Source: Eledone cirrhosa
Lineage: Eukaryota
Reading direction: 5' to 3'
Assembly: GCA_964016885.1 (NCBI GenBank)
Contig: OZ024743.1
Span: forward strand, 62,372,001-62,436,000
Length of the DNA stretch: 64,000 nucleotides
In this document: positions 4,591-64,000 of the stretch, piece after piece
Position numbering within the stretch: the first letter of the stretch is position 1
Layout of the letters: each line of letters starts with the position of its first letter
Program-made: the position numbers and the translations under genes
Notes under the pieces: generated by a model
Told to the model about the DNA's origin: nothing
The model's database searches: none
The model's input: the letters and a program-made list of their open reading frames with translations, nothing else

Positions 4591-4607
4591 CGCTAACGAC
4601 ACACACG

Positions 4608-4659
4608 CACTGCGTGTGGTAAACGTCATATATATATATGACGTTTACCACACGCAGTG
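4608..4659. repeat. Perfect 52-bp palindrome centred on (TA)n
   Basis: cactgcgtgtggtaaacgtca + tatatatata + tgacgtttaccacacgcagtg. Confidence 0.9.
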
Positions 4660-4752
4660 TAACGTGAAGTTACTGTAAGTTCACCAAGGTGAGCACTCAA
4701 TGTTTAGGTTCACGTTAGTGGCGAGGTATAGAGCTAGATAGATTGTAATATA

Positions 4753-9235: not shown

Positions 9236-9281
<46 letters not shown>

Positions 9282-9540
9282 AAGGTATATATTGAGTTAG
9301 AAACTCAAAATAGTCTCTCACAATAAAACAGCTCCAGGAAAGAGATTTTTCCGAGCCGTATATTATAATTGAATATAAAAGAAAAACGAACACAGACATA
9401 TACATATATGTGTTCAAATGGTAAGGGACCAGATTCGCTAAGGTGAAAAGAATACTAACTATAGACAATAGGGTTTGCCAGACTCAATTTAAGAATAAAT
9501 CAAGAAAATAAATACAAACCGGAATTGTGGTAACTACCAA

Positions 9541-9620
9541 TCACCCAGACAGCTTTGGTAATGCTGTTTCGCAAAATTAATTGTGAAGAGGAATACCAAT
9601 TCTTGCTCATCAGTGGGTGA
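9541..9620 (-). ncRNA. Canonical type I hammerhead ribozyme
   Basis: Minus strand: TCACCCA-CTGATGA-GCAAGA...TTTTGC-GAAA-CAGC-attaccaaa-GCTG-TC|TGGGTGA. All core nucleotides, three stems and a GUC cleavage triplet are present. Confidence 0.9.
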
Positions 9621-10120
9621 AGAATTAGTATCCTGGACACTTCTAAGTATATTAAAAAACTGAATAGTGTGTGTATATATATAATAACGCACATGGTATC
9701 TGAACTTAGTGCGTCTCGCAAACTCACACTACTAAAAATAGCAGCCAGGTTTACTCGACATTTGAATTAGCTCAATAAATTAACGGAGCCGAATATATCA
9801 AAGGTATATATTGAGTTAGAAACTCAAAATAGTCTCTTACAATAAAATAGCTCTAAGAAAGAGATTTTTCCGAGCCGTATATTATAACTGAATATAAAAG
9901 AAAAACAAACACAGATATATACATATATGTGTTCAAATCGTAAGGGACCAGATTCGCTAAGGTGAAAAGAATACTAACTATAGACAATAGGGTTTGCCAG
10001 ACTCAATTTAAGTGGTGTGAGTTTGTGAGACACGCTAAGTTCAGATATCATGTGCGTTATTATATATAGCACACTATTCAGTTTTTTAATATACTTAGAA
10101 GTGTCCAGGATACTAATTCT

Positions 10121-10200
10121 TCACCCACTGATGAGCAAGAATTGGTATTCCTCTTCACAATTAATTTTGCTAAACAGCATTACCAAAGCTGTCTGGGTGA
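10121..10200 (+). ncRNA. Hammerhead ribozyme copy with catalytic G12 changed to T (predicted inactive)
   Basis: Same sequence as the 9541-9620 motif except GAAA to TAAA at 10171. Confidence 0.8.
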
Positions 10201-10399
10201 TTGGTAGTTACCACAATTCCGGTTTGTATTTATTTTCTTGATTTATTCTTAAATTGAGTCTGGCAAACCCTATTATCTATATTCAGTATTTTTTTCACCT
10301 TAGCGAATCTGGTCCCTTACCATTTGAACACATATATGTATATGTCTGTGTTCGTTTTTCTTTTATATTCAATTATATATATACTCGTATATATATATT

Positions 10400-26463: not shown

Positions 26464-26728
26464 GTGTGTGTGTATATATTGATCACCTTGACCGACCAGT
26501 GTGTCGGGCGCCAATCGGCGCCGCTGGTCACAGCACATCGTGCTGTTTTAGCCATAAGATAATACCATCCCACTGGCTGGGCGGGCAGGCCAGTACTCAT
26601 ATCTACAGCTGAGTAAACTGGAGCAACGTGAAATAAAGTGTCTTGCTCAAGGAAACAACACATCACCCAGTCCGAGAATTGAACTCACAACATTTCGATT
26701 GCAAGCCCAATGCTTAAACCACTAAGCC

Positions 26729-26810
26729 ATGTATTTTATTATGCACATTTCAAAATCAAATATCATCCCATGATGATATTTGATTTTGAAATGCGCATAA
26801 TAAAATACAT
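26729..26810. repeat. Near-perfect 82-bp hairpin
   Basis: atgtattttattatgcacattttcaaaatcaaatatcatc ... gatgatatttgattttgaaatgcgcataataaaatacat. Confidence 0.85.
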
Positions 26811-27201
26811 AGAACTCTTTTAACCATCTTTTGATTTTATATTATTTATACTCCAGTCCTATAAACTGTTGAGTGCTACTTATCCGATATTTGCATTGCT
26901 TTATTGTGCTACAATAAAACTCACCTCCTACATTATATATATATATATAGAGAGAGAGAGATTCTATGGTTGGATGCCCTTCCTAATACCAACCAGTTTG
27001 CTGAATGCTTCTATAATTGAAATAGAAGTTCCATTCTATTCTCAATTTGTGCCATATTTATTTGACAGAAAGAAAGATCAAAATGTGTGTGTGTGTGTGG
27101 GGGGGGGGGTTCAAAGTAGAAATTGTTATTACTATCATTCATCATCATCATCATCATCATCACTGTCGTTGTTGTTAATGTTGTTGTTATATTTCTTTCA
27201 G

Positions 27202-29018: not shown

Positions 29019-29545
29019 ATGAAAGACAATGCCTATGATTTTTAAATAATTTTTTAAATAATTGTTTCTGCTTATGGCACAAGGCCAGCAATTACCCAGT
29101 ACATTACTGGTACTTTATTTTATTGACCCCATAAGGATGAAAGGCAAAGTTAACCTCGGCAGGATTTGAACTCAGTCCATAAAGGGACGTAACTGTGCTG
29201 CAAGGCATGGCGTCTGACCTTCTACCGATACTGACCACCTCTTAAAATAAATAATAAATATTTTAAAAAATAATGGAAGTATGTTTGGAATGTGGCTAGC
29301 GAAGTTTAGAAGTGAAATAGAAATAGAAGCTTTCACTGTAATATTTTTTACTATAATATAATCTAATAATGGGACATATATGTGCTGATACCCATCTTTT
29401 TCCCCATTATAAGACTGTATTATAGTAAAACATATTATGGCGAAAGTTTCTATTTCTATTTCACTTCTAAACTTTGCAAGCCACGTTCTAAACATACTTC
29501 CATTATTTTCAAAATTATTTAAAAATTATAGGCATTGTCTTTCAT
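29019..29545. repeat. Fold-back inverted repeat (about 150-bp arms) within a TTAA-type MITE; left arm interrupted by a SINE
   Basis: atgaaagacaatgcctat...ataatggaagtatgtttggaatgtggc versus gccacgttctaaacatacttccattat...ataggcattgtctttcat. Confidence 0.8.
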
Positions 29546-36100: not shown

Positions 36101-36669
36101 AGATATACTCTCCAGCCAAAAGTGTAGAGTTTTCTCTTTACACTTTTTTCATTAAGAAATCACTATTTAACTTTTTCTCACTTCCTCTTTTTCTTCGTTT
36201 TATACTTCTTTTCAACAATAAATTAATCCCTTCTTTTGTTAACCTATATTTGTAATATGATGGCAGTTGAATTACACGCTACTATTGTTTGTCGTGTATT
36301 AACTTCCTTATATGGTTATTTTAAGTTCAAATCCCGTTCTGAGCGACTTTCATATTCCTTGTAATGAATTGTTCTTACTGAGAAGGGGGATAAAAAATCG
36401 GCATTTATTCGTTTTAGCATGGCATTTTTTAATTTCCTTTAAGTTTTTGTCCAGGTTATATTTATCGATGCTGTGGTACAAACTATGACCACATGCATTT
36501 AATCGCTTTATTTGTTCCTGTTACACTTTCTTAACCTTGTGTTTTCTCTGGACGAAAATGTATTAACTTTTCGCACCATTGAGTGCTTTGTGATTGCCTC
36601 AAACAATTCGATTGGTACCTGCTATATTGCGGCTACAACTTCGATTCATACATATTATATATATATATA

Positions 36670-38200
36670 ACACCAATAAACCAAAACTCCAGCCTGTCCC
36701 AAACAACATACAGAACTGCAACGTGGAACCTGTACACAGGAAGGCCTCTAAGTGTAACTGCCACCTACCGGATAAATGCCCACTGGAGAATAGATGCCTG
36801 AAGTCAAGTATAGCATACCTGTGCACTATCAAATCTGGCAACATAGCATGGCACTACATTGGTTCTACGGCTGGTAATGTAAAAAAAAAAGATGGTATGT
36901 GCTTAGACATTCCATAAAAAAAACGAAAACTCAGTAATACAATGACGATGACCAATAAAATCTGGCAGCTTAAGGTCATCAATCGGGAATATGAGATTAG
37001 CTGGTCGGAGTTATCGAATGCAAGGGCCTACAAAAATGGAATGTCCCACTGCGGACTTTGCAATATGGAGCTGCTCCATATTCTAAAATATAATAAAATG
37101 CTGCTCAATAATAAGATCGAGCGAACAATTTTCTGTAGGCACAAAGCAGCCACCAAATTTTCCAACTTCAAACCGCGACCGGCATAATTCGATCTAGCGA
37201 TCTCAGTATCCAGTCTAAACCACCCGGATTAGACCAACACCAATGAACCAACTTTATACCCCCTCACTGTTGTTAGCTGTCAGTAACTGGTTATTAAATC
37301 ATCCTCGGCAATCCCTCAACTTTTTTTTCCAATAGTCGCATCATCTCCATTAAGATAAAACATTCAAACTACCCCAACCTTAATCACCCATATGTCATCA
37401 TTGTCCCCTTTACTTTTTTATTCTCTATTTATCAATTTACCGTTTTCTTATTCTCATCTTTTATTTATTATTATTCGTTTGTCTCCGAATCCTTATTCTT
37501 TATTTTTATCTCCTACTCTTTATCTTTTACTTTTTATTTTTACCTTTTATTATTTTTTACCACGGGGATTGGCAGTATCAGTAGAGGGTCGGACGCCATG
37601 CTTTCCAGCATAGTTACGTCCCTTTACGATCTGAGTCCAAATCCCGCCGAGGTTGACTTTGCCTTTCAGCCTTACGTTGTCGATAAAATAAAGTACCAGT
37701 AATGCACTGGGTAATTGCTGGCCTTGTGCCTAAAGTAGAAACAATTATTTGTTACCACTTAGTCAATTCATGAACTCATCCACTATATTAGAACGGCGTC
37801 AATACACCAGACCACAAGAGAGCAACATTTCGCCTATCATATATTGTCTTTCCAAAAATTCTTTTCATGCTATTATTATCATTACTGTCATTACTATTTT
37901 ACACATCTATCTACTCGCGATAACTACGACCACCACTACTACTATTATCAGAAACAGTATTTTTGTTGTTGTTATTATCATTGTTTATATTTATGTTATT
38001 CTCCGATGTATCTATAAATGCCAGTGCCCTGTGTTATACACACATCAGTATTCTGATGATTTGATCAGGAAAACACTGTAATTAAGATCAAGTGACGTAA
38101 CTTCTAGCGATCAGCGGCTTTTAGACTCACCTAATTAATGAAACAATTGTTAATACTGTAAATAAACCTTTTTTGTACAGCCGACCATGTTATTCTTCAC
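36670..38200 (+). mobile_element. Penelope-like element 3' part: GIY-YIG endonuclease remnant plus 3' region with hammerhead motif
   Basis: CNCHLPDKCPL...CLKSSIAY...HYIGST, IWQLK, CGLCNME, LLN..E...CRH (frameshifted). Bounded by (TA)n on both sides; a SINE is nested at 37565-37748. Confidence 0.85.
38046..38158 (+). ncRNA. Type I hammerhead-like motif with long stem II insert, in the PLE 3' region
   Basis: CAGTATT-CTGATGA ... GAAA-C-AATT-G-TT|AATACTG; perfect 7-bp stem I, palindromic stem III, AATAAA directly after. The base of stem II is a T-T mismatch. Confidence 0.65.
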
Positions 38201-45817: not shown

Positions 45818-46419
45818 GTAAGATAATTATTTCTACTGATTTACTCTGAGTAAAATAATGACAGAATTTATATTACTAATACATTCACTCATACAGACTC
45901 ACACATGTACATACAGGCATGCGCACATAGAAACATACATATGTACATGCATGCATACACATACATAAACACACACCTGCACATGCATCTATACACATGC
46001 ATGTTTACACAATCACTCACATACTCATTAATACATACATGCATGCAGGCATATAAACACAGATACATCAATACACACACATTCATGTTTACACACACCT
46101 AGATGCATGTAGACATGCTCGCTTGTGCATACATACACATATACACACACAAGTGTATGTGTAGAAGTTATACATGGTTGTAAAGAATTCCAGTAAAAAC
46201 AATTGCATGTGTAATTCTGTTTTTTGGTAAACTAACCTGATTCTTGGCAAAACTACTCCATAGATGTATTCTTGTAGGTTCTTAATTCTTGTGATTAATT
46301 TCAATTGATTCACAGAAAAATTCTTCATTCAGACAATTTCTTAATCAATACCAACTTGGTAGAAGACGATTTGGCAAAGTTGTTAGAATGTCACATAGAA
46401 TGCTTTGCAGAATTCATTA

Positions 46420-46650
46420 TCATCATCGATTTTATGTTCGTTTTTTCCACGTCTGCATGGGTTGGACGGGTCCTTTTCAGCACAGCATCTCTCCACTCAC
46501 TGCGTTTCTTCGACATCTCCTCTGTGAGTCTTAGTGATTTGAAGTCAGTTCTCACCTCTTCTGCCCAGGTCTACCTCTACTGCGACTTCCATCCACTGGC
46601 ATTTCCTGGCACTACTTTACCCCTTGATCATCGTCCATGCACATTACATG
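46420..46650 (-). mobile_element. RTE 3' end fragment
   Basis: Reverse complement resembles 34260-34490. Confidence 0.7.
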
Positions 46651-46744
46651 TAAACTTTCTGAGCTTTGAGTTCGGATCATGCTGAAGAAACTTTGCCTTT
46701 CATTGTTTTGAGATTGAAAAATAAAGTAACCATGCAATACTGTG

Positions 46745-46751
<7 letters not shown>

Positions 46752-46826
<75 letters not shown>
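46752..46826. repeat. (CT)n microsatellite
   Basis: Directly visible. Confidence 0.95.
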
Positions 46827-46829
<3 letters not shown>

Positions 46830-48914
46830 GGCTGTGTTTAGACCTGAAGAGGGATGAACTCCACCAGTTTTAAATGCCTAAGACACACTGTGTGTCATGG
46901 CACCCCTCCAACAACATTAGGAGGTCATTGCCCATGGGTGGCAACTGATTGGCAGAATTTCATTACAATAGTCTCTTGTGGCTATATTGTTAAAAAGTTT
47001 GGTCCATAACCATATGGTTTCTGGTTCAATCTCACTATGGGATACTTTCAGCAAGTATCTTCTAATATAGCCTCAAATTGACCTATGATTTGCTAAATGG
47101 AGACTGTGCAGAAGGTCATCATATATATATATATTGGAAAAAGTATGACCCCGACGGCAGAGCTCAAGCCGTTTCGACGGCTATTTCTACCCTAAGTATT
47201 GAGTACTCTGGTGCGTTATGGTCCATCTGCTTCCTTACCACAATTCCTTTGTTATATATATATACACACAGTTACAAAAGAAAAGCTTGCATGACTAAAT
47301 CGTTAGAATATGAATTCAAATAGGGGTGCACAGGACAGAGACAGTGGAAAAGCGACAGAAAGACAGTCAACCTCTGGAAATCACTACGGTTTCTGGGAAT
47401 TAAGGTTGATACCATTCATTCCAGTGCACATGTGAACATAGCAAAACAGGTAGACAGGTAGAGACAAGTCATTCCTTTAGGCGAATTACACAAATACAGA
47501 AGAAATAGCATCTAAAGTACATCAACTGACAAAGAAGACACAGAACAGTGTGCAAGGGATTAGCCAAAGCAGAGAAAAATATAGAAAGGTGAGAAATAGT
47601 AAAACAGAAAAGAATAGTCCAACTTGCAGAGAAAGAGAAATTACATTGAGGCATAGAAAAGGTAAAGAAGGGAGACTAGAGGAAGACAGACCAGATAGCA
47701 TGATGTCTAATAAATGATAGTTTCAACAACAAAAAATATATATATATTAGTAAAAAGGAGGGAGTAATATATCCTCAAGACAGAGACATAGCCTTGATGC
47801 TTACAACAGTATAGCTAAAGCACTCAATGGTCAGGTGGTGGTGTTAAACCAGGTAACAGATTAAGTCTACCACCCAACTAAGCTACCACGGGATTTCAAA
47901 AAATTCTGGATTGATACTTTATTTATTGACAACTGAAGGATGAAAGGAAAAGTTAACCTTGGCAGGATTTGAACTGAGAACACAGAGAGTTGGAACAAAC
48001 ACCACAATATATATGATCTGAGGCTTTAATGGTTCTATTAATTCACTACCTAACTAAATAGAGATGTATTAGACTTTTCTACTAATTAACTTGTATGTGT
48101 TAGAGAGATTGTTACAGACCAAGTTTGTACTTAATTCAAGCTACTTTCCTCCTTGGTGGGCCAGTGGACCACATCTAACTGAGATACATTCCATTTTGGC
48201 ATTATTTCTAATGCTGGATGCCCTTCCTAATGCCAACCACTTTATAGAGCATACTGGGTGAATTTTATCATGGCACCAGCTCTAGAATGGTTGTCCTACC
48301 CTTGATCGAATTGAATAGATCTCTCTTCCCATTGACCTGATCTCAATGGTTGGAGGGTCTTCCTAATGCTAACCACTTTATAGAATATACAGGGTACATT
48401 TTATTGTAACACTAACACAAGAGGGATTGCTACATCTTTGGCAGGACTGAAGAGTCCTTTATACAAGATATTGTTAACATTCAACTCCTTTTTGTAGTTT
48501 TTTTTTTTAATCTATATTCTACTAATGAACCCTTTATCGGCATACTACAAGTTCACCATTGTTAAGAAATTGTCTATTCTCACAGTACTCTCTCAAAATT
48601 TTATTTTTCCTATTTTTTCTTTTTCCTTTTCCTGTCTTCATGTTTGCCTGCCTTTTTATAATTGCTTTGTGTATTTTTACATACTGCTATATATATAATT
48701 AGTGTGGAGATATGGATATCTATGAACTGTGTGTTAGCTACATCTCCACCACTACCACATTCTCCCCTCCCCATTTAACAGCCCACTTTCAAGGAAGCTT
48801 CCTATGCCTCTGCACTTTAAAACGAATAAAAATAGTTTGGCACACTTTCTAAGTAAAGTAGAAATATAGATAACTAAAAATACAGAAAAAAATAACTTGT
48901 ACTTCCTTCCTTAA

Positions 48915-49327
48915 CCCTTTAGCATTTACATTACTCTATATATACTATTGTATTTTCACAGTAAAGGCTTTACCTCACATAATATCTCACATAACATTTA
49001 CATTACTCTATATATACTATTGTATTTTCATGGTAAAGGCTTTACCTCACATAACATTTACATTACTCTATATATACTATTGTATTTTCATTGTAAAGGC
49101 TTTACCTCACATAACATTTACATTACTCTATATATACTATTGTATTTTCATTGTAAAAGCTTTATCTTTCATAATTATCTCACATACTATTGAATCTATG
49201 AGATTTTAATACTATTTATTTTAAGAACAATACCTTAACATCAGTGTGAGCAACCAGTTATGGCCGGTTTGAAAAGAAAGAGGTGAGAGAATTCTGGCCG
49301 GATACAGCCAGTTTAAATGCTAAAGGG
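48915..49327. mobile_element. piggyBac-type MITE containing a 60-bp tandem repeat
   Basis: TTAA|CCCTTTAGCATTTA ... TAAATGCTAAAGGG|TTAA (14-bp perfect TIR); about four copies of a 60-mer at 48923-49175. Confidence 0.85.
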
Positions 49328-49438
49328 TTAATAATATATGGAGCAAAGCTATCTATGAGAATCTTACAGTTGGTATTTTTGTACTCTATTACTCTATTAT
49401 GTGTTCCAGTTTAGTTGTGCTTCTTACTTTGACAGTTA

Positions 49439-49810
49439 CTCTCGGGTTCCAAATAATAAGGGGTGGGGGTGGGATAAGTGTGGTGGGGGGGGGGCAGTAA
49501 TTTTTCTAGGTTGTCTCCATTGGTTTTTTTTAGAAACCAGAATTATTCGTTTAGTTTACATATTGAGACCCCCAACCCATATTTATTTTATAATGTATGG
49601 GATTTTTTGTAATGTACTTTTTTTGGCATGTATAATGTTTTTTAATGCATAAAGAAAAATGTTGCAGGAATGCTACCACTAAAATTAGTAAGTTTAATAA
49701 GTGTAGGAGTTGGAATAAGAATGGGAGTGGGGTGGAATAAGAGCAGGGAGTGGAGGAAAAATCTGAAAAATTAATAAGGGAGAGCAGGACAATTATTCGA
49801 GACCCAAGAG
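49439..49810. mobile_element. Tc1/pogo-type MITE
   Basis: TA|CTCTCGGGTTCCAAATAAT ... ATTATTCGAGACCCAAGAG|TA. Confidence 0.6.
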
Positions 49811-51503
49811 TACATTTGAGCTTTATTACAAATTTAAATTTGTATTTTTCACATTTTGAAATATAATCTTCCTCTTTTGTGAGACACTAAATTACATTTC
49901 ACAGCGCACAGTTTGGGAACCACTGCTCTAAGCAGGGGTTTGACCTGCTAGAATTAGCTGCAAAATCTCTTTCAAATCACACTCCACCAATTTAAAAAAA
50001 AAGGAATAACATAATAAAAAATGTAGTCCAAGACATCTATAAACATGGGTTCACACCTGCTATAATGTATCTTGAGCAAGTATCTCGTACTATAGTCTTA
50101 GGTTGACTAATGATTGTGATTGGAATTTTGTAGATGGAAACTGCAGAAGTGCAACGTGTATATGTGTGTGTGTGTGCTTATGTTTACATTTGTGTCTGTG
50201 TTTATGTCCTGTAACTTAGTATTCAACAAAAACGAGATTGATACGATAAGTACTGGAATCGATATGATTGATAAAATCAAGATAGTGTCCCAGCTGACCT
50301 CTGTCTAATGACTGAAATCAATAAAATTGTAAACAATGGGATATTTAATAGTCATTTTAGCCATTTAAAACACACACACAAACTGCTTTCTTTACTTTTT
50401 ATTTATTTGATGGTTGACATAGTCACTGATAATTTCTCTACAAATGGAATTGTTATTGACCATGTCACAGAAGTGTGGGGAAAATTTTGACACTATAAAA
50501 TAAATGAAAAGTATTTTTTTGAATGGCTAAAATTATTCTTTCCGTGATGTAATAGTCAGGTCAAGCTTCTGACTGCTTCTTGTATCATGTAACTCAGTAC
50601 AACCTACTTCGTGGTCAAGTGATCAGTAACTAAACTGGCTTCTTCACCAGACCCTGGTCTAGTGAGGAGGGTAAGTGGAACCCCAGCAGCACAAAAAACA
50701 AGAGTTGTTAAAAGGGCAGACAAACTCCTCAGGGTCAACAGCCATCCACTCCAACAATTGGTTAAATAGCCTCACCAACCCACAATTGGCCAAGCATGAT
50801 GAGTACAGTTACACCCCTGACATGACCAAAACCTAACAGAAAGCAGTTGAGGTCAACCAAGGAGAGATTCCTCCAACAGGAATGAGAAGGCCCTGAATTA
50901 GATGTAATTTTTTAAACATTATCTACATCTAACAGAGCCTGGGTGTAGGTATTTAGCTCTATAGGCTAGCTCTACAATGTCAACTGCCTTATCCTAGTTA
51001 TGTGCCCATTCTTTCAAATAAAATAATTTCAGTTTACAGTTAGGTAAGTTAACGAACCTAGTTTTAGATACTACTTGCTCTGATCCCACTAAGAAAATTA
51101 CTAAGTCTGCTGTGTCTACTACACAGTCCAGAATCACCCCTGCCAAATCGTGTACCATAGAACCCTCTCTACTGCTTTGAATATTTCCACATGGCAAAAA
51201 TGTTTAGTAATTTGTTTATTGATCATAGGAATCATTATATATTTCATTTAATTATATACACATTTGTATAAAACTGTGATCCTTTAAAGTTTAGTAATGA
51301 GCATGTTTGAAGTCTGCATCCTAGGCAGCTGTTAAGTTGGCTTTAATGATAACACCAACCCTGCTATCTAGTAATCCTCCAGTCCAGGAAGGTTTACAAA
51401 TTATATGGTTCCTAACTGACCCCTACCATTAAAACAGAAACATCCAGTTGATAGACTTCTATGTAGTTGTAATAACGTTTATTCTGTTTTTCTATTTCTT
51501 TAA

Positions 51504-51738
51504 CCCTTTTGATACAAACCACATGAAACTACTTCTGGTTCTACAATTCAAAACTGATATTGTAAATTGTTTATGTTTATCTAAAAATATTCCATCGTAA
51601 TTTTATGTAAGAACCTTTCTTAAGTTATGCTCCAATTATCAGCTTAATAATATGAAAATTATTTTCATAAATCCCTCCAAATGTTTCATTATTTAAAACC
51701 ATTGACATTCTTTCATGAATAATATTATAACGAAAGGG
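51504..51738. mobile_element. piggyBac-type MITE (relatives near 2420-2650, 6100-6310, 28830-29570, 45480-45600, 54090-54445)
   Basis: TTAA|CCCTTTTGATA ... TAACGAAAGGG|TTAA, with shared internal ctggttcta and aattttatgtaagaa motifs. Confidence 0.75.
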
Positions 51739-53496
51739 TTAAAAAAAAATCTTTTAATATTTCTTTTCTTATGTTTTCCTTTTCTGTTTGCTTTTATTGT
51801 ATGTTTCTTCATGTTTTCTATCTTTCTTTTCAAAATTAAAGTGTATTGTAATAGTTTCATGTAATGTCTTCCTTAGAATAATTAAAAAGATTGTTCCTTG
51901 ACCCCTACCCCAAACTCCCAAGCATTTCAGCTACCCTCACTCATACATATGCTTATGTAACAAACATATAACACATTATATGATGTAACATACATATATC
52001 ACATTATATGATGATTTTATATATATATATATATATATATGAGTCCCGGGTTCAATCGGGAGTAACCACAGTTAGCAAGGTGCCAATATATTAGTGTCAA
52101 CACACATACATACATAATGACTGCAACTCAATTTTGAGGAACGCCATCACTTAATACTTAAGCATGAGCATCATGGATGTGGGTTCTAGCCTATGGCCAG
52201 CAATACCATGCATCGCAAAAAATGTCCACATATCAAGCAATGCCTGTGTTTGAAGCTTTTTTAAGTGAGGATAGTCTTTGTACGGGGCCCACTCTCTGAA
52301 CATTTGCCACAAAAGAAGAACTGGTCTACATCATTAGATGCAAACAAAGTTGCAGGTTTTATATCAGAGTGACCTTCGAGAGAGATGACTTAACAAAGAC
52401 TAGGAGTCTCTAATTCCACAAAAAAAATAAAAAACTTTATTGGATGGCCGTTGACTCTGTGTTCTTCTGCCCTTTGATGGGTTTTATTTTTCATCTCGCA
52501 GGATGTCCAAATTCACCTTCCTCACCAAGCAAGCTTGGTGGGGTTGCCGGTTTAGTCGCCGGTTTAGTCGCCGACGATCCGACCATACATAGGTTGTACT
52601 GGGTTATATGTTACCAGTAGCACAGAAAAGCGACCTGACATACATACATACATATATACATATTCATTACTGTTTAACCATGGTTGCATGGGTTAGAGGT
52701 GTTGTCATGTTATGCAGCTAGATAGGCCCGGTAACCATGTCTTATTGACACAATCCATTTTTTATTTGGATTTCTAATGCTGGATGCCTTTCATATTGCC
52801 ACCTACACTTCAGCTTGTACTGGAAACTTTTTTATAGGCACCAGCACTACCACATTACAGAGTGGACTAGGTGTATTTTGTTGTGGCACCAGTTGACCAC
52901 CTTACAGGGTGGACCTTACAGATACATACATATATATATTTGCTATAAGTGAAGGTGGGTGGCCTCGTGGTTAGAGTGTTCAGTTCACAATTGTAAGGTC
53001 ACGGGAGCTCATTTTTTTCCTTGAGCAAGACACTGCTCCAGTCCACTTAGCTGAAAAACATGAGATATACCTATAGTTCAAAGAACCAGCTATGTCATGC
53101 TAACTCTCCCTGAGACCTACATTATGGATACACGTGTCTGTGGAATTATCAGCCACTTGCATGTTGAAACAACGAGGACACTTGTCATTGCCAACAGAGA
53201 TCCAATAACACTTATTCCATCTTGCTCACCCCTGGGTCTCCTGCCAGTTGGTTTTGCCTGTAAAATCTGTCCAGCGATTATTTCCTGAGACATAGTTAGA
53301 ATATATATATATACACACACATATATATATATATATATATAAATTTTGAGTATATGTTGGTTGTTTACCGACACCTCAGTATGCAGATTGGAGCACTCGA
53401 CGAAGTACGCAGGTTAGTTTGTTTACTCTGGAGTAATATAAAATAATTATGTCAAATATGTAAAATTTGGCTTCGTTTATTACAAATTATAGATAT

Positions 53497-53551
53497 ACTG
53501 CTATATATATTTTGGTGACAGCCATCATTGGCTGTGACCTCTTCAGGCAGT
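53497..53551 (-). ncRNA. Hammerhead copy with catalytic G12 changed to A (predicted inactive)
   Basis: Minus strand: ACTGC-CTGAAGA-GGTCACAGCCA..TGGCTGTCACC-AAAA-TATATATA-GCAGT. Confidence 0.75.
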
Positions 53552-53702
53552 CTCTTCAGTTATTTCTCTTAGGAACTGGAATCATATGATTACAGTTCCT
53601 AAGAGAAATAACAACACTACCAGGAGCTGAACATATCGATGGATTGACGGAGTAAAACACACTTCAACAACATGTGTACCTGTCCTTCCCACATCAATTC
53701 GG

Positions 53703-53757
53703 ACTGCCTGAAGAGGTCACAGCCAATAATGGCTGTCACCGAAATATATATAGCAGT
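53703..53757 (+). ncRNA. Type I hammerhead ribozyme with minimal palindromic stem III
   Basis: ACTGC-CTGAAGA-GGTCACAGCCA-ataa-TGGCTGTCACC-GAAA-T-ATAT-A-TA|GCAGT; intact core, AUA triplet, predicted cut after 53752. Confidence 0.85.
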
Positions 53758-53808
53758 ATATCTATAATTTGTAATAATTGAAGCCAAATTTTACATATTT
53801 GACTGAAT

Positions 53809-53854
<46 letters not shown>

Positions 53855-54281
53855 GCACACATACATATATATATATATATATAGTAATAATAATAAATTT
53901 GAAGACTAAAATCCAAAGAGGGCTCGATAAGGATAAATATATATCAAATATATAAGAACTGTAGAGCAAATATTTATTAAAAATCTGTTATTTTAATAAA
54001 TATATATATATATATATAATCATCATCATTTTCCATAGAATTCTTGACAAATTTCTTAAGTTAAATTTTCTGCAAGTGACAATATATTTGAGCCTTTTGA
54101 TACCAACTCAGTCACAGTCAGTTTTGGTCCTATGAAATAAAATAACTCATTTTAAAGAATTCCTATTAAATCAAATTTTCTAAAAACATTTTATATAAAG
54201 ACCATAAGTTAAGTTACTGACTTACCTTCCATATTATGTATCCTCCAAATGTTCTTGTGACAAAGTTTTGATCTTATATTT

Positions 54282-54355
54282 GTGTTTAACTTTTTTATTA
54301 ACTCTGATGAATCTGGCCTTGTGCTTGGATGAAACGATCATCAGTTATTAAACAC
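54282..54355 (+). ncRNA. Type I minimal hammerhead-like motif
   Basis: GTGTTTAA..TAACT-CTGATGA-ATCTGGC..GCTTGGAT-GAAA-C-GATC-A-TC|AGTTA-TTAAACAC. Two-part stem I; C-A mismatch in stem III, likely CpG decay of CGATCG. Confidence 0.7.
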
Positions 54356-57199
54356 TCTTTGATTATTATTTACATTATATTTACATTGTATCTTAGTCAT
54401 TAATAATTTTAGTAAATCCTTAAAAATACAGTCATGAAAAGGTTAAAAACCAGAATTGTTGAAAAACATAAATTTTGTAATATGTAACCTAAAAAAATGG
54501 GTTAAAAATGGAAACTGTTACAATACACAATTTGTTTTGTTCTGTAGTTGATATTTGGCATTGGTGTGTCTTCTCTCCTTCAATTCTACCTAATTCTACC
54601 ATTCATCTAATGTCTTGTATATATTACATACTTGCTTGTATTTCATAGTACCTCTGATATGTTGTATACATTTCTCTGCTTGTTCTGTTAACTCTTATAT
54701 ATCTGTGGCTTGGCCAGGTGGATTCGGGATGTTCTGCATACAGGGAGAGAAAGTCAGCTATTTTATTCCATCTCTCTCTCCCTCTCTCTCATACACCACC
54801 ACCCTCATACACATATGCACACACACACACATATATGTGTGTTTAATGTATGTAGCATGTATATATATATATGTAATTATGTGTGTATATATATATATGT
54901 AATTATGTGTGTATATATATACACACATACATATATATATATATGCACACTCACAACTAATTTTTTTTTTTTTTTTTTTTGCCTTTTCTCAAATATGACT
55001 TGGATTGCTTTCAGACACCTTTTAATGTGTTAAAATTTTAACCGAATGTTTCATAAATCTTCTAGTTTGTTAATCCAATATTAACCATATAATTCCCTTC
55101 TTAACCTACTATTAACTATATATATGCCTCCTTTCTAACCTAATATTAACTATATATGATCACCTCCTCCCCCACACTTTCTTAACCCAATATTATCTGT
55201 AACTACCCACTTCCAGTATTAACTACAAATTTCTCCTCTTAACCTAAAATTAACAGTATATTTCCCCTGTAAACCCGATATTAAATATGTTTTCCCTTTC
55301 TTCATATAACATACTGCAATATCTACCCCGTTCTAAATTCAGCTACCATAAATACTTGAGTATAAATCCGATCGCGACTGTAAGTTGATATGCTAATCCA
55401 AGTAATAAAATGGCTTGAATTTATGTTGAGTTCAAAATCAGTAACTATAACTCAACATAAAACTTTATTTATTTATTTAATTTAAACGACTGTGTAGAGC
55501 TAGTAAGTACTCTTAATAGTTGGTAAGCAAAAAGAGCTAGTGAGACAAGTAATTAAAAAAATTTAAAGAAGGGAAAAATATCAAATGAAATAAAATTAAA
55601 ATAAAATGCTAAATATTGAAGGCCAATGGGAGGCAGTTATGTTTAAGAAAACAAAAAAGAAAAGGAAAATAGGAAGCAAGGGAAGCTGTAAAACAGAAGT
55701 TTCTGTTGTTGAATCTTTTCATAGCTTCCATCTACTCAAAGATTTTGTCCATATTTGGTAGACCTGTAATCAAATATTGAACTTCTAATCTTGGTAGTTT
55801 TTAAAGATTGGTTTCCCCATGGCCTCTCTCTCAGACTGAGTTTCTACATTGAAACAAATAGTGTCAAAGACTTTCTGGAGAGTCACCACAAGAACATAGA
55901 GGTGAATCTCTACAACCTGTTCTTGATAGAATGTAGTTCAAAGGTATATGTCCAGTTCGAAGCCAGCATAGTCTTTTTATTTTTGCATTACTCGGTGATC
56001 AATAAGTTTGGAATGTTGTCAAATCTGGTTTATTTATTTACTAGTGGTTCTGTGCCATCAATAATGGCATAAGCACTGAACATATTTAATTTTTGGAGTC
56101 CAGGATTGGTTTCCATATTTACTAGGATTACTAGATATATGAACAGTCATACAAACTGGGTAACTTGTGTTTTGATAAATTAATAGTCTATATAAGAGAA
56201 ACCCTATAGTTTATGTTGATTACTAACACATAGAAATGATTAAGGATAAGAATGATATTCTTTTAAACATATTTCTAGGATGTAGGTAGTCGTAGAGGAG
56301 CTGTATTGACATACAGCATTTCTTGGGCATTTTAAGCCTGGCGGAGTCCATCCCTCTCCATCAGATTTCTTCCAGAGAGAGGAAGAATTGACCCCAGTAC
56401 TAGACTGCTACGTTTTTAATCAACCTCGAAAGGATGAAAGGCAAAGTTGATCTTGGCGGAATTTGAACAGCAGAGAGCTGGAACGAATACTATAAAATAT
56501 TCTATCCGACATTCTAATGACAGCCAATTAGGATATAATTACATAAATAAATATTCCACATAGATGTTCAAATGATATACAAGATTAAATGTGTTAATAA
56601 CTTTGAAGAAATAATTATTTACAGGGACAAATGTAGGATTATAACCAAGATCCTAGCAATTAGAAATCAAACTTCTTATTGTAGCAACATAACTGATATA
56701 GGAAATGCATTATGTGTATTGGTGTATGTGTTTGAATATTTTATAGAATCACAAACAGATAATGTTATATATGTGTGTATGTGTGTTATTATATGTAAAT
56801 GTACAAACACACAGTGTATTATTATCGTTCATTGAAAAACACAAAAAGAACACAGATTAAGCAGTTGAAACCATAGTTGTCTTCTTCATCAGACTCTTCA
56901 AACAATTACTCAGGTAGTTTATCTGTCATGAAGTCATTTTGAGGGCAATCCTCTTCTTTTTCTGAATCCTCATCATTATTAACACACGATACCCTGTAAT
57001 GCATGAAACCACATTCATAAGACATTTTTGAAAACTATAAAACAGCTCTGTGACTGCATCATGTTAGAAAGTAAAGTCTTTACTGTAATATTGTAAATTT
57101 TCACAATGATCTGTCCACCAACGAACACACTATAAACATTTAAATTAGCAAACCTATATTTAGATGTTTTCTGCAAAATCATTATACAATATTAGAGTT

Positions 57200-57875
57200 G
57201 AATAGTGTGGCAATTACATTTAAGTGTAAAGTTTGTATAGAGCTAGCTACAGATGCAGAGGATGTTGAGCTGAATCTTGGGAGTGGTGTGATAGAAAGTA
57301 TGAAAACCTTGATATCTTGGAGACGTGTTGAATGGAAAAGGTGGATTATACTTGGTGACATGAAAGACATTCTTGGAACTGAATTGCATGCTTATAAGGA
57401 AGGGAGTGCTGCTGAAACTAAAGAGAAATATGTATACTGCATGTGTGAGAAGTCTCATGATTTATGGTAGCAAGACATGTGTGAAAAACTTGGAGCAACA
57501 GAGACGGCTGGAAAGAATGGAAATGCGAATGGTCTGGTGGATGAATGGAATATAGCTCAAAGAGAGGAAATCAAACAATGATTGGTCGAGGATCTTGAGA
57601 TAAATTCAGTGATGAATGTTGTGAAGAGAAATGGAATGAGATGGTTGCGTCATGCATTGAGGGAGGATGAAAGTGACTGAGTGAGACAAGTGGTGGAAAT
57701 GAGTGTGGAAGGAAGTAGAGAAAGACTAAGAAAGGCATGATTAAAAAGAATGGAGAAAGAAATGAAAGTCTAGAAGTTGGTGAGGAGAGATGCAGATGAT
57801 AGGGAAAAATGGAGAAGCTCATCATAAGGCCTGCATGGCCAACCTCTGCTTTACCAGGGAAAATGGCCTTAAAAT
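57200..57875 (+). mobile_element. Old RTE-like LINE 3' remnant
   Basis: LKLKRNMYTACVRSLMIYGSKT...RLERMEMRMVWWM. Confidence 0.65.
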
Positions 57876-60111
57876 GCTTGTTATTATGCAGAGTCCTCTG
57901 GTATTTATCAGGCTCTTACCCAATAATATCATCTTCTCTTCCCTCTAAGGATTTGGACCACAAGCTATCATCTTCTTTCTCATATATAGTATAGCTTTCC
58001 AAAAAACTGCATTTCACCATGTTTATGTTGGTTCTGAATCAAGCAGTCACTACTCATTTTGCAAGTACTCTTAGTATGGGCCTCTTCAAGCTGTCTACAT
58101 TGATTTCTGCAGCTTGTCCAGGAGAAAGCCATAATCCTCACTTCTCATGGAGATGGTCTATGAATGGCTTGTTGCATTTTATTACAAATGCAGACTGAAT
58201 TTCTTTAAACTCTATGCCCAATTTTGTTTATTTTTTATCTATAAATGTTTGTTTACATTTGTAATTTTTTTATCCTTGCAAAAGATATGCTTCCCACTTC
58301 ATTTTAGAAATTAAGATCCTGTACTATGTGAAACTGCATTAGCAAGACATTTTTTAAATATACAAAACAACACTATGACTGTATTACATTAAATATTAAA
58401 GTCTTTAGTCTAATTTTCACAACTTGTCCACTAGTAAAAATACTTTATAGATGTTTGAATTGTAGTGGCACTCCATCAGTTACGACAATGAGTATTCCTG
58501 TTGATATGATCAACAGAACAGCCTGCTCATGAACTTAATGTACAAGTGGCTGAGTATTTCACAAACACACATACTGTTAACATAGTTCTCAGGGAGATTC
58601 GGTGTGACACAGAATGTGACAAGGCTGGCCCTTCGAATTACAGGTACAACTCATTTTTGCCAGCTGAATGTACTGGAGCAACGTGAAATAAAGTGTCTTG
58701 CTCAAGGACACAGTATGCCGCCAGGAATCAAACTCATGACCTTATAATCCAGAAAGCTGCGCACCTTCACAGATATTTGAATTAACAAACCTTTTAATAA
58801 ACATATTCTGCTAAATCATTACAGGTTGTTAAGAGTTAAAAGCACAAGTATTACAGAAAACTACAACATTTAGTTAACTTAGAAGTATCCAAACAAAAAC
58901 TTATTAATTTTAGTAATTCAAGAAAACAATATTTTTTTTTACAGTCCCCATTACTGTTTTATTTTTTATTATGCACGTGATTGGCAAGATTTTTCTTCCT
59001 TTATTTATTTCTTCCTATTACTTCAGTGGGCCAACACACTTCTAGCCACTGATTTCTGTCCTTTGGGGTAATTTTTACCCGACCCTGTCATTGACAGCAT
59101 TTTGCTGTTTTAACAGCTATTCTTGGGTTGAGTTTTTCTCATTATTTTATGAATTCTAATACACTCGTGCTCCATCTCGGTCTTTGAGACAAGATTGCTA
59201 ATAAAATTAATGCAATGACCTGTCACTCAATTTGGCTAATTTTTCTGAGCATTATTTTAGCTACATTATTCTTTCACTTATGGCGGTGGATTGGCAGTAT
59301 CTGTAGAGAGTCGGACGCCATGCTTTCCAGCATAGTTATGTCCCTTTACAATCTGAGTTCAAATCCCGCCGAGGTAAACTTTGCCTTTCATCCTTACGGG
59401 GTCGATAAAATAAAGTACCAGTAATGCACTGGGTAATTGCTGGCCTTGTGCCTAAAGTAGAAACAATTATTCTTTCACTCCTATTTTCAATGTGCGTCCA
59501 GTTTAGAATTGGTACACTGTTTCCCTGCATGTTGTAAAAGGCAACTAAAACCGTTGATGCCAGGAAGGGTATCCAGCTGTAAAACATTGCTTCAAAAAAG
59601 ATCCTGTGATCAGCATGAACCCTTTCATGAAACGCGCAAGGCTAACCCATGCTTCAGCAGGAATACATGATTAAATATATTATATGTATTTAAATATATT
59701 ATATATATATAAATATATATATAATATATACACATACACACATATATATATATACACATACATATATATATATACACACACACATATATATAATATATAC
59801 ACATATGTATATAATGTATACACATATATGTATATAGTCATTACCATTTAACGCCCATCATTGTTTGTAGCTTGTTAATTTGTTATCTATTCATTAAATC
59901 CACTGCATGGACACTATTCCAACCCTTTCACTAAAATGTTTTGTCTTTTTTTAACTTTGATAATAACGATTATAATCGCTTATTACTGAGAGAAGGTCTT
60001 TTGTCTGCCAGCCAATCCACAGGCATCTCATTCCCATCCCTGAACAAATGGTATGTAGTCAAGATTAAATGGCTGACAGTCAGGCTCATTCACACACACA
60101 TGCAATATATT

Positions 60112-60174
<63 letters not shown>

Positions 60175-60587
60175 GGTTGTTTGGGGAAAAACAAGTTCAG
60201 TGCAAATTTGAAATACAATAGTGAAAACTAGAGTTAAGTAAGGAAATACAAAACAACTGTTTACACTTTCACCTTCTATTGTTAAAGGTTTATTACCTCT
60301 TTTTCAAAGTGTGGTCACATGTACCAACATTTTGATGTGCAATGCACCACTACAACAACTGCACATTAAATATTCAGTGTAAACTGCTGCTTTGTTTTAT
60401 TTTTCTGACTTTACTCTAGTTTTCATTATTGTATTTCTAATTTTCATTGTTACATCTTTCCCAAATCAATCATAGCCATATATTGTGTGTGTTTGTATGT
60501 GAATGCAAACTGTGTCCCTGTCCTTTCTTGCTTTATGCATATACTAACCACCTCTCCATTGGCCTCTGTTGTATGCACTTTCTACAG

Positions 60588-60596
60588 TTGGCAAAG
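60588..60596 (+). CDS. Candidate 9-nt microexon TTGGCAAAG
   Basis: Consensus branch point TACTAAC (60542-60548), pyrimidine-rich flanks, TGC just upstream of tttctacAG, AAG|gtaaaa donor, frame-preserving length. Confidence 0.4.
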
Positions 60597-61489
60597 GTAA
60601 AACATTTAAAATGAGAAGGAAAATGAAGAAGCGGAAAATGATAATGTTGACACCAAGCCCTGAACTTCATGGAGGTAATTATGAGTGAGAGACCCTTGCA
60701 AAGAATGGTTAATCATTCCATAATGGGTTAGGTAAAGAGCTTGCTCTGAAATAGTGTACAGAATTTTCAATGTGTGAATTATTTGCTTGTTCTAAATGTT
60801 TTATCAACTCTTAATGTCCTGTACCATATAAAACTACATTAGCAAGACATTCGTGAAAAGTATATAAAACATTATGACTGTATCACACTAAAAGTTGAAG
60901 TCTTTACTCTAATATTGCAAATTTTCATGACAATTTATCCAGTAGTAAAGATACTATAAACATTTGAATTAACAAACCTGTTTTAAAATTTTTTTTTTTT
61001 GCTAAATCATTATAGGATTTTAAGAGTTAAGATAAGAATTTTTCACAATAAATTTCATTTATGCAGCGTATATTTACACCATCTGTATCTACAACTGCAT
61101 TTTTAGAATATATGTATTTACAGTTTATGAAGGCATATGGCTTAGTGGTTACGGTGTTCAGCTCACAACTATAAGGTTATGAATTCGATGCCCAATGGTG
61201 TTCTTGAGCAAGACACTATTTTTAAAGATGCTCTAATCCACTCAGCTGGAAAAAAATGAATTATACTTGCAATTCAAATGGCTAGTCTTGTCTCTCTTTC
61301 TCTCTCTCACACACACACAATGTGTCGTGCTAAATCTCCCCATAAACTACATTAAGGGTACACACATGTCTGTGGAATGCTCAGCCACTTGTACGTTAAT
61401 TTCACAAACAGGCAGTCCTGTTGTTTGAACAACTGGAACACTAGTCATTGGAGCCAATGAGGGTCCAACACACATACACACTTCTTCTT

Positions 61490-61850
61490 TGCCCACTTAC
61501 TCCTGAGAGGGTCGTGGGGGCAAAGTCTTCAAACCCTCCTTCCAGTGGGTTCTGTCAGAAACAACCATCTCCAAATGATCCAGCTGGATCCCCAAATGAG
61601 ACCAACTGAGCTCATGGATAATATCAAACTATCTTGCTCCGGGTTTACTTCTGGGTCTCCTGCCAGTTGGTTTTGCTAACAAAATCTGTCCAGCAATTCT
61701 TTCCTGAGATATTCTAACCACATGTCCGTAGTATCAGAGCTGTGGTCTCTCAATTCAGAGAAGTTGTGGCTCTACCTGAAGTGACTCTCTGATTTGCGAG
61801 CTACACACTTTATTAAGTAATGGTAATCCAAGGACTCATCAGAGAAGCAT
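61490..61850 (-). mobile_element. RTE (Expander-like) 3' remnant; related piece at 53190-53295
   Basis: Minus strand GHVVRISQERIAGQILLAKPTGRRPR. Confidence 0.6.
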
Positions 61851-62519
61851 ACCATTTACAATATATTTAAGGTGGTGAATTGGCAGAGTTATTAGGGTGT
61901 CAGATAAAACGTGTTGCAATATTTCTTCCAACTCTTTCCACTCAGTGTTCAAATCCTGCTGCGATCTAATTTTTCTAAATATTATTCCACTTATTGCATT
62001 TCATGATAGCGTGATAGCACCAACTATAGAGAGAAATATAGATATAATTGTTTCTACGTTTGGCACAAGCTCAGCAATTATCCCAGTGTATTACTGGTAC
62101 TTTATTTTATCGACCCCCGTAAGGATGAAAGGCAAAGTTAACCTTGGCGGGATTTGAACTCAGATTGGCAAGGGCCGTAACTCTATGCATCAAAGCATGG
62201 CGTCCAACTCTCTACCGATACTGCCAAATGATTGAGAGATAGATAGATGAGGATGGTTGGAGCCAGATAGGTATAGAGAGTGAGAGAGACAGACCAACAG
62301 ACAGATAGATAGATAAAGTGAGATAAAGAGAAAGGTAAACATATAGATAGATAAACAGAGATGGGGAGACAGACAGATAGCTAGGAGATCCCATCAACAT
62401 TAACCAAAGCAAATTAGATGGTTTATGTAAAACTGTAGTGATGTGTGTATTGCTGGGGGTAACCTGTTATGTTTTGTTTTGTTTTTGCTGTGAAAACAAA
62501 ATCTTTTTCTTCTATATAT

Positions 62520-63890
62520 CCATCACCAATGTCATGACAACATTCCTCCTCCAGCACATCCTCTCTAGCATTGCTGGCTGAATTTCCCCTGCTTCCAACT
62601 AGATGTTATTTTCAAGAACACCCTTTAGTGTGGTGGTTGGTCTCTCAACTCATCTGCACATATCAGATTTCCAGAAAAGAATTCTGCCAGCATGTTCATT
62701 GTGATGTTTCACATGTCTGGTTAATGCAAGCCTCTTATGACATATGATGTCAGAAGTGCAAAGAGCGATTTATTTGCTATGTGTTGTCTCCAGTCCAGAA
62801 TATGTTCTAGACCTTTCCCAACATCCGGATAAATGTGCCGTTACTCCTCTTTGTGAGTGATTTTGTCAGTGTCCACAACTCACATATGTAGAGGAGAATG
62901 GACTCAACTGTTGCTTTGAATAGCCTCATTTTGTGATTTTCTTCATTGGAGACACCCACACCTTTTATAGGGAGTTGAAAGCACACATACACATAGCCCC
63001 CCCCCCCCCCCCCCCCCCCTCCCCATGCCTTGCCTATTCTGGTGTCCACATCGTGCTCAGTGTTCATAAAACTGCCAAGATACAAGAAGTCATCCACCTC
63101 CTCAATTTATGAACCATCCAGTGCATGCATTTTTTTTATTTGTCATTGCATTGAGATGCATGTATTTCAGTTTGTCAGCATTCAAGAAGAGTGGAATGAA
63201 CTGTGTTGCAGCTTCTATTCTGTTTGGGCATGTTCTCAGCTTCTTTGCAGGTGTTTTCCAGGATAGCTATGTCATCTGTGGAAGCCATTTTCAGATAGAT
63301 CTTCCTCCGGATTTTGAGTTCTTTGTTGACTTTTCAGCATTATTCCATCTGACGGTGCAATGGCATTATGCAGTACTTAATCAAGGCATATCACAAAAGG
63401 GAAAAGGGCCAGAGGATCTCCCTGGAGGGCTCTGGTATCAATGAAAAATATGTCTGAATTTCCTGCAGGTGTCATTATAAGTGCTGAAGTATTCTCATAC
63501 ATGACTTTAATTGTATTCATGATCTGATGGGGTATCCCCATATGCAAGAAGAATTTTGAGCATCTTCTTTTCGTCGATTGAATCAAAAGCCTTCTTGAAA
63601 GCTATTAATACAATTGCTGCTTCCTTCTTGTGATTCTGTACCTTCTCAACCATCCTCCTTGGAGCCAAGATGTGTGAGGCTGTCCAAAATGTCCAAAATA
63701 CATTTTGGCTGGAACATAAAATGTTGTTGATACATAGACTGATCCTATTCAGAATCATCCTATTGTAAGTCTTTGCTGCAATTTGTGAAACTCTGATGCC
63801 TCTATAGTTGATGTAGATGGTAAGGTCACCTTTCTTGGGTACTATTCCTGATATTCCCTTTCAAAGGTTTTGATGCAGAAGTCCTTTAGA
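62520..63890 (-). mobile_element. Decayed RTE-type LINE RT region
   Basis: FKKAFDSI, LQGDPLALFPFVICLD, ADDIA, DDFLYLGS and LFKATVESILLY motifs across frames. Confidence 0.8.
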
Positions 63891-64000
63891 AACTATATAT
63901 ATATATATATAATCTTTATCAAGAAATACAGATTAGATGATTAAATTAGTTACACAGAGCTGAGAAGACATTAACAAAAAATTTAATGGACATTGCCATC

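What the first reader, a model, noticed from the sequence alone, without database searches (positions are those of the whole stretch)
53436..53818. Second inverted hammerhead pair: intact plus copy, G12A minus copy, able to sequester itself
Seen: arms of about 115 bp, unrelated in sequence to the 9.3-10.4 kb element. The plus arm has a complete hammerhead with a minimal palindromic stem III (ATATATAT). The minus arm has GAAA changed to AAAA, and a separate hairpin of about 54 nt sits in the spacer. Known: minimal PLE hammerheads with palindromic stem III can cleave as dimers. Inference: on a plus-strand transcript the upstream arm is antisense to the ribozyme and could lock it in a long duplex. 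ADAR editing, which is extensive in coleoids, could in principle loosen that duplex. Both inverted pairs in this window lose the same catalytic nucleotide in one arm, but here it lies in a CpG, so decay is a simple alternative.
Basis: partly seen in the sequence, partly recalled or inferred. Interest (0 to 1): 0.75.

Follow-up and report, generated by a model that had tools for sequence, protein, structure and literature searches.

The report
Back-to-back Penelope retrotransposon ends with hammerheads
This is one of thousands of leftover, back-to-back end pieces of a Penelope-type jumping gene sitting in a predicted intron; the damaged ribozyme copy looks like ordinary DNA decay, and the layout likely records how the element copied itself into the genome rather than a switch used by the host.

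Summary
The description holds: 117-bp inverted arms, a complete type I hammerhead on +, G12A on -, and a hairpin between them. The boundaries and the reading need changing. The insertion spans about 53341-53815 between (TA)n runs. It is two head-to-head terminal repeats (pLTRs) of a Hydra-clade Penelope-like element (PLE); an 892-aa RT/GIY-YIG copy carries the same end. The hammerhead 3' motif matches 8,071 times in the genome. In this subfamily (572 matches) G12A (35) is as common as the mirror CpG change that spares G12 (32), so it is neutral decay. Most pairs (16 of 24) keep both cores. The 'separate' hairpin is the inversion junction, left stranded by an 89-nt loss from one arm. Self-sequestration is predicted (about 69 kcal/mol) but would apply to every such pair. 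Modelled editing does not release the ribozyme. Opposite-strand hammerhead pairs, the one-sided tail and palindromic junctions are published PLE features. What remains of interest: 42 of 42 classifiable pairs join one tailed and one tailless arm, which fits copying from both cut strands. The scan noted this footprint before on other DNA of this genome. No RNA data were available.

The parts
53341..53438 (-). Tail (about 98 nt) beyond the short 3' end of the pLTR; in full elements it leads into the ORF start.
53436..53552 (-). Tail-bearing pLTR arm, hammerhead to short end
53497..53551 (-). Type I hammerhead copy with G12A (base 53513; CpG to CpA), predicted inactive
53552..53559 (+). 8-nt copy of 53539-53546 at the place where 89 nt of the left arm are missing (templated insertion)
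   Evidence: sequence
53559..53612 (.). 54-nt hairpin = inverted junction, centred between 53585 and 53586, where family copies mostly begin
53586..53815 (+). Tailless pLTR arm, whole from junction to short end; 91% identical to the pLTRs of L178 and L238, which follow RT/GIY-YIG coding sequence
53703..53757 (+). Complete type I hammerhead motif, 2-bp stem III, predicted cut 53752|53753
53321..53340 (.). (TA)n run, left target flank
53816..53845 (.). (TA)n run, right target flank
45818..64000 (+). Predicted intron of an EGF-repeat gene (calcium-binding-type EGF exons upstream, laminin-type EGF exons around; MEGF6-like by recalled architecture); next exon about 5.2 kb beyond the window

Best explanation
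This is a decaying, non-coding insertion made of two back-to-back end repeats of a Penelope-type retrotransposon, likely formed when the element's enzyme copied its RNA from both cut ends of a (TA)n site and the two copies were joined at a short palindrome. Shown: family membership, high copy number, (TA)n flanks, one tailed and one tailless arm, a junction at the family's commonest 5' end, and symmetric CpG decay. Inferred: the two arms start at the two reverse-transcription start sites that bracket the tail; both stop at the RNA's 5' end (likely the pLTR transcription start); one arm lost 89 nt during or after insertion; the G12A change came after insertion. In host pre-mRNA the pair is predicted to fold into a long duplex that silences the intact hammerhead and may be edited, as a by-product with no selected role.
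For: 8,071 exact matches to the hammerhead 3' motif, 0 for the reversed control; 572 in the window's subfamily. L132 reads (TA)n, inverted tailless copy, 892-aa ORF, pLTR with hammerhead, tail, (TA)n. Subfamily copies L178, L238, L249 and L173 carry its C-terminal coding sequence upstream at 79-87% aa identity in the best pieces. Hydra-clade motifs are present. 49 of 88 loci have an abutting inverted partner; 42 of 42 classifiable pairs are tailed plus tailless; 72 of 137 5' tips lie within -8..+16 of the junction centre. CA 35 against TG 32, p = 0.81. Other CpGs of the pLTR decay at like rates. G12A loci are paired no more often than others (9 of 29 against 26 of 87). Core positions change at 2.6% against 3.6% elsewhere, p = 0.23. 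Published.
Against: Exceptions to the tail rule exist: 4 of 60 pairs in a wider, non-random sample are tail/tail or tailless/tailless. Pfam did not reach its cut-offs: GIY-YIG 20.6 bits against 22.6 on a fragment, and no RT or GIY-YIG family on the full protein, so the clade rests on motifs. Priming from both strands is inferred; snap-back on one cDNA with later trimming is not excluded, and solo copies with short 5' fold-backs favour some snap-back. The transcription start is untested.
Confidence: 0.9

Rival explanations
1. Same element, but the inverted arm arises by snap-back: one cDNA folds on the junction palindrome and copies itself, and the tail is then lost from one end during resolution.
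For: Solo copies with 5' fold-backs of varied length (L017, L019, L021, L259, L275). Arms of a pair are closer to each other (median 4.5%) than to other loci (6.4%) and mostly agree at diagnostic columns. Self-priming was proposed from junction palindromes in rotifer Penelopes. L002 has two tailless arms and inverted flanks.
Against: A pure copy-back should give two equal 3' ends, yet 42 of 42 pairs differ. In many pairs both arms are cut at unrelated 5' points. The anole protein extends both strands and starts at two sites that bracket the tail.
Confidence: 0.3
2. Host-selected switch: the dead antisense arm locks an intronic ribozyme in the EGF-repeat gene's pre-mRNA until ADAR editing frees it to cut.
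For: The intact copy is sense to the predicted host transcript. Duplex penalty 68.7 kcal/mol against 3.3 for the + arm alone. Octopus has very high hyper-editing of double-stranded repeats.
Against: G12A is neutral and common. Sequestration needs no dead arm and holds for any head-to-head pair. Full editing of the antisense arm leaves 30.6 to 60.1 kcal/mol by model, and at 50% editing only 3% of molecules would keep five core A. Stem III has 2 bp and such ribozymes are reported to need a dimer and to cut weakly. Polarity is reversed in the other pair.
Confidence: 0.03
3. A foldback/MITE-like DNA element or a non-LTR retrozyme that moves as a fixed palindromic or tandem unit.
For: Many copies are near-perfect palindromes with one centre, with about 300-340 nt between hammerheads.
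Against: The arms end at two different 3' points; junctions vary from inside stem II to 7 kb apart; copies run into RT/GIY-YIG coding sequence. No tandem monomer array was seen at this locus.
Confidence: 0.04

Closest known systems
Hydra clade of C-terminal-endonuclease Penelope-like elements (Craig et al. 2021, PMC8557442; passages, section 11 and supplement rows read; Hydra-1_Obim is listed there)
   Same: RWK, DKT, CxCX5C linker, CxxC and CxH in the nuclease, canonical hammerhead, (TA)n targets, inverted 5'-truncated copy, tail at one end.
   Different: The ORF (892 aa) has a long low-complexity insert and the element is about 4.2 kb (paper: mostly under 3 kb). The tail is about 100 nt against 30-40. 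Not compared by sequence with Hydra-1_Obim.
[quoted passage not shown]
   Same: Type I, long helix II, 5-bp helix I, small palindromic helix III; the paper reports dual hammerheads 100-700 bp apart on opposite strands.
   Different: No extra base between positions 9 and 10.1 here. Activity untested.
Penelope elements of Adineta vaga (PMC3846280; passages read)
   Same: Head-to-head pLTRs, palindrome at the inverted junction, tail on one inverted pLTR, internal deletions.
   Different: No target duplication can be seen in (TA)n; thousands of copies here against few there.
Anole Poseidon PAc (Frangieh et al. 2024, PMC11167929; parts 1-2 of 4 read)
   Same: Two fixed 3' ends bracket the tail; AT-rich target; no pile-up of copies starting at the hammerhead cut (3 candidates among 10 hits).
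   Different: Other clade; here the ORF starts about 220 nt past the hammerhead, not inside it.

Membership tests
Penelope-like element (EN+) | Single ORF with RT and C-terminal GIY-YIG linked to this repeat | tested here: met
   892-aa ORF in L132 with YRDD and VY..YIG motifs. GIY-YIG E 5e-4 on a fragment, below Pfam's cut-off; none on the full protein. Subfamily copies joined to the coding 3' end.
Penelope-like element (EN+) | pLTR at both ends of the ORF, direct or inverted, with hammerhead | tested here: met
   L135 has direct pLTRs plus inverted copies; L132, L133 and L137 have an inverted 5' copy.
Penelope-like element (EN+) | Tail at only one end of the insertion | tested here: met
   42 of 42; 56 of 60. 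About 100 nt rather than 30-40.
Hydra clade | RWK and DKT motifs, CxCX5C linker, CxxC and CxH in the nuclease | tested here: met
   MRWK, DKT, CNCRNPESC, CKLC and CRH in the L132 protein, against section 11.
Hydra clade | Insertion into (TA)n | tested here: met
   Flanks of this copy and of most loci.
Hydra clade | Placement in the Hydra branch of an RT tree | not tested
Type I hammerhead ribozyme | Core CUGANGA / GAAA / NUH with three stems | tested here: met
   + arm. 52 of 55 nt kept against a diverged subfamily whose adjacent stretch keeps 83 of 117. Rfam gave no hit.
Type I hammerhead ribozyme | Self-cleavage | not testable with these tools
   Needs an assay; no RNA run was listed.
Non-LTR retrozyme | Head-to-tail tandem monomers, each with a hammerhead | tested here: not met
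   Head-to-head pair, no tandem unit here; the repeat is the end of a coding element.
Naiad clade | N-terminal endonuclease, no canonical hammerhead | tested here: not met
   Endonuclease motifs are C-terminal and a hammerhead is present.

The most novel reading that the evidence does not exclude
Each back-to-back insertion of this family is made by coupled priming from both target strands: one reverse transcription starts at each of the two sites that bracket the 100-nt tail, and the two cDNAs meet at a palindrome at the RNA's 5' end. The near-strict one-tailed/one-tailless rule (42 of 42; 56 of 60) would be the genomic record of a dimeric enzyme using each site once. As a side effect, paired insertions would silence their own ribozyme in host introns.
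Probability: 0.45. Interest if true: 0.45.

Novelty: new member of a known kind. Interest (0 to 1): 0.17.

Why it matters
As a locus it is ordinary: one of thousands of decaying retrotransposon ends. The family is useful because it is abundant and has unbroken ORFs, so it offers counts on an open question, how Penelope-type elements make inverted ends and one-sided tails. It is also a likely large source of short double-stranded RNA in introns. It gives no evidence for an editing-controlled ribozyme switch.

Tried and rejected
Rfam scan of the window: no hammerhead family; only sub-threshold microRNA-type hits on simple repeats. RNA: no RNA holder listed. Contigs of three runs from one sample covered the stretch in short pieces from many copies, none spanned it, so the junction could not be checked independently. 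PDB sequence search with the ORF: nothing below E 0.19. The protein atlas gave no answer. Pile-up of copies starting at the hammerhead cut: 10 matches, 7 of which keep the upstream hammerhead with a longer TA run; 3 are candidates; rejected as a main route. A first regex count of tails (22 mixed, 4 tailless pairs of 26) dropped rows wrongly and missed mutated tails; it was replaced. The first folding penalty (82 kcal/mol) used mis-set pairs; it was replaced. 'Both pairs lose G12' as a pattern: chance about 1% for two given pairs, picked after the fact among many pairs and core positions, with opposite polarity; rejected. Lunse et al. on dimer cleavage was not held; it is known here only through the review PMC6765202. 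One search for Penelope + twin priming + inverted gave 2 unrelated-looking papers, seen as listing only; that does not show the idea is unpublished.

Full report
Observation. The inverted repeat is there: 53436-53552 and 53702-53818, 117 nt, 95% complementary, far beyond shuffles. The + arm holds a type I hammerhead motif at 53703-53757 with a 2-bp stem III and a predicted cut at 53752|53753. The - arm has G12 changed to A. That G12 is catalytic is recalled knowledge. The 54-nt hairpin at 53559-53612 is real. Rfam lists no hammerhead here.

True extent. The - arm continues for about 98 nt to 53341. This tail is seen behind the hammerhead in many other copies. The + arm stops at about 53815. 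(TA)n runs flank both ends. The hairpin is centred between 53585 and 53586. Complete copies are one long palindrome around that point; this copy lost 89 nt from the left arm, with an 8-nt local duplicate at the break, which leaves the centre looking like a separate hairpin.

Family. A 27-nt pattern from the hammerhead's 3' half matches 8,071 times, and the reversed control 0 times. A longer, subfamily pattern matches 572 times. Widely spaced pairs contain RT and GIY-YIG frames. A protein search found frames of up to about 890 codons. L132 reads (TA)n, an inverted tailless copy truncated in the nuclease, the ORF (892 aa from Met), about 1.1 kb of 3' sequence, pLTR with hammerhead, tail, (TA)n. 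Copies of the window's own subfamily (L178, L238; 91% identical to the + arm) carry this ORF's 3' part upstream. The protein has RWK, DKT, CxCX5C, CxxC and CxH, the marks given for the Hydra clade. An earlier scan note pointed me to that clade, and I checked the motifs myself. Pfam scores stayed below cut-off, and no tree was built.

Layout statistics. I took all loci under the first 100 of the 572 matches: 90 records, 2 dropped as the same place, 88 left. Of these, 49 have an abutting inverted partner. In 42 both 3' ends could be classed, and all 42 join a tailed and a tailless arm (41 if one likely duplicate is dropped). Seven had one arm ending elsewhere. The 39 solo copies split 18 tailed, 20 tailless, 1 other. 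Of 137 5' tips, 72 lie within -8 to +16 nt of the junction centre. In a wider, non-random set of 117 loci, 56 of 60 pairs were mixed, 2 tailed/tailed and 2 tailless/tailless; some duplicates may remain.

The dead arm. In the subfamily, CG to CA (G12A) occurs 35 times and CG to TG (G12 spared) 32 times of 572, p = 0.81. Four other CpGs of the repeat show changes of the same order. Across the family G12A is 121 of 8,071. Of 26 pairs with two hammerheads among 87 loci, 24 could be scored: 16 have both cores intact, 6 have one hit and 2 have both hit; independence predicts 8 and 1. The anchor arm's 3' core was fixed by the search pattern except at G12, which favours intact anchors. Of 35 G12A matches, 30 were fetched and 29 kept; 9 are paired, no more than other loci, and the mutant arm is tailless in 6 and tailed in 3. 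In the 9.3-10.4 kb family G12 is changed in 4 of 87 matches, it also sits in a CpG, and its dead copy is the host-sense one. The shared loss is a coincidence at a mutable site.

Host context. Eighteen EGF-repeat exon frames lie on + from 14.4 kb to about 87 kb in window numbering, none on -, and none between 45.8 and 69.2 kb. Calcium-binding-type EGF frames lie upstream. The insertion is therefore predicted to be intronic and read on +. The name MEGF6 fits by recalled architecture only. No RNA run was listed, so transcription, editing and cleavage are untested.

Sequestration and editing. Forcing the hammerhead fold costs 68.7 kcal/mol in the whole element and 3.3 in the + arm alone, so the lock is predicted to be strong. 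It does not depend on the dead copy and applies to any head-to-head pair. Modelling every antisense A as non-pairing leaves 30.6 kcal/mol, or 60.1 if inosine is treated as G. The ribozyme has 19 A against 12 on its antisense side, and at 50% editing 3% of molecules would spare five core A. Editing is plausible, since octopus repeats are heavily edited (PMC5625713, passages), but it should damage the ribozyme sooner than free it.

Mechanism. Most likely the enzyme cuts (TA)n, and both ends prime reverse transcription at the two sites that bracket the tail. The copies run to the RNA's 5' end, likely the pLTR start, where a palindrome lets them join head to head. This fits the anole protein, which extends both strands and starts at two sites around the tail, using uncut RNA (PMC11167929, parts 1-2 of 4). 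It also fits the lack of copies beginning at the ribozyme cut. Snap-back on one cDNA is the main rival. The hammerhead is kept in the master lineage (52 of 55 nt against 83 of 117 beside it), while single copies drift.

Comparison with print. Inverted 5'-truncated copies and a one-sided tail: PMC8557442 (passages). Opposite-strand hammerheads 100-700 bp apart, and weak dimer cleavage: PMC4209133 (parts 1-2 of 4). Head-to-head pLTRs with junction palindromes: PMC3846280 (passages). Dimer need: PMC6765202 (passages). Retrozymes as PLE derivatives: bioRxiv 10.64898/2026.07.22.740005 (part 1 of 5; its supplements were not seen). The supplement of PMC8557442 lists an octopus Hydra family; I did not compare sequences with it. 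Earlier scan notes describe the same footprint in other families of this genome; they are unchecked notes, not support.

Verdict. A real but ordinary PLE end pair; new member of a known kind; interest 0.17. The only part worth following up is the near-strict tail rule.

Noticed in passing
window 9271-10390: The other hammerhead element has both a direct 220-nt repeat and a 381-nt inverted repeat. Its dead copy (G12 to T) is sense to the host gene, and its G12 also lies in a CpG.
   Followed up: partly
window 36669-37160 (+): Diverged GIY-YIG-like fragment, 32% identical to the L132 protein's C-terminus.
   Followed up: no
L132, L133, L131 and other matches: Several copies keep unbroken frames of 850-896 codons (896 includes flanking TA repeat), so the family is young; about 60 of the first 100 hammerhead matches carry T at position 11.1, a subfamily trait that turns the G-C pair closing stem II into G-U (counted by eye).
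   Followed up: partly
L068, L069: Pairs folded back inside hammerhead stem II (33 nt between motifs); junctions also recur near a second short palindrome upstream of the hammerhead.
   Followed up: partly
L002:1314-2064: Two tailless arms, with about 190 nt of flank also inverted on both sides: a possible copy-back into the target, or an insertion into another palindromic repeat.
   Followed up: no
G000 C7-C10, C13, C19 and small contigs, within 57 kb of the contig start: The 9.3-10.4 kb family's hammerhead motif recurs on the - strand about 25-62 kb from the start of several contigs, as in a shared subtelomeric block.
   Followed up: no
L144 (about 40 kb past the window): A near-full, more diverged copy of the same PLE family (83% DNA identity over 3 kb) lies downstream of the last EGF exon found.
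   Followed up: no
window 4602-4668, 26726-26811, 29294-29483: Other strong DNA palindromes, picked up as sub-threshold microRNA-like hits; likely further fold-back repeat remnants.
   Followed up: no
L131:400-2610: Tandem array of a unit of about 480 nt, with internal TA runs, upstream of a PLE copy.
   Followed up: no
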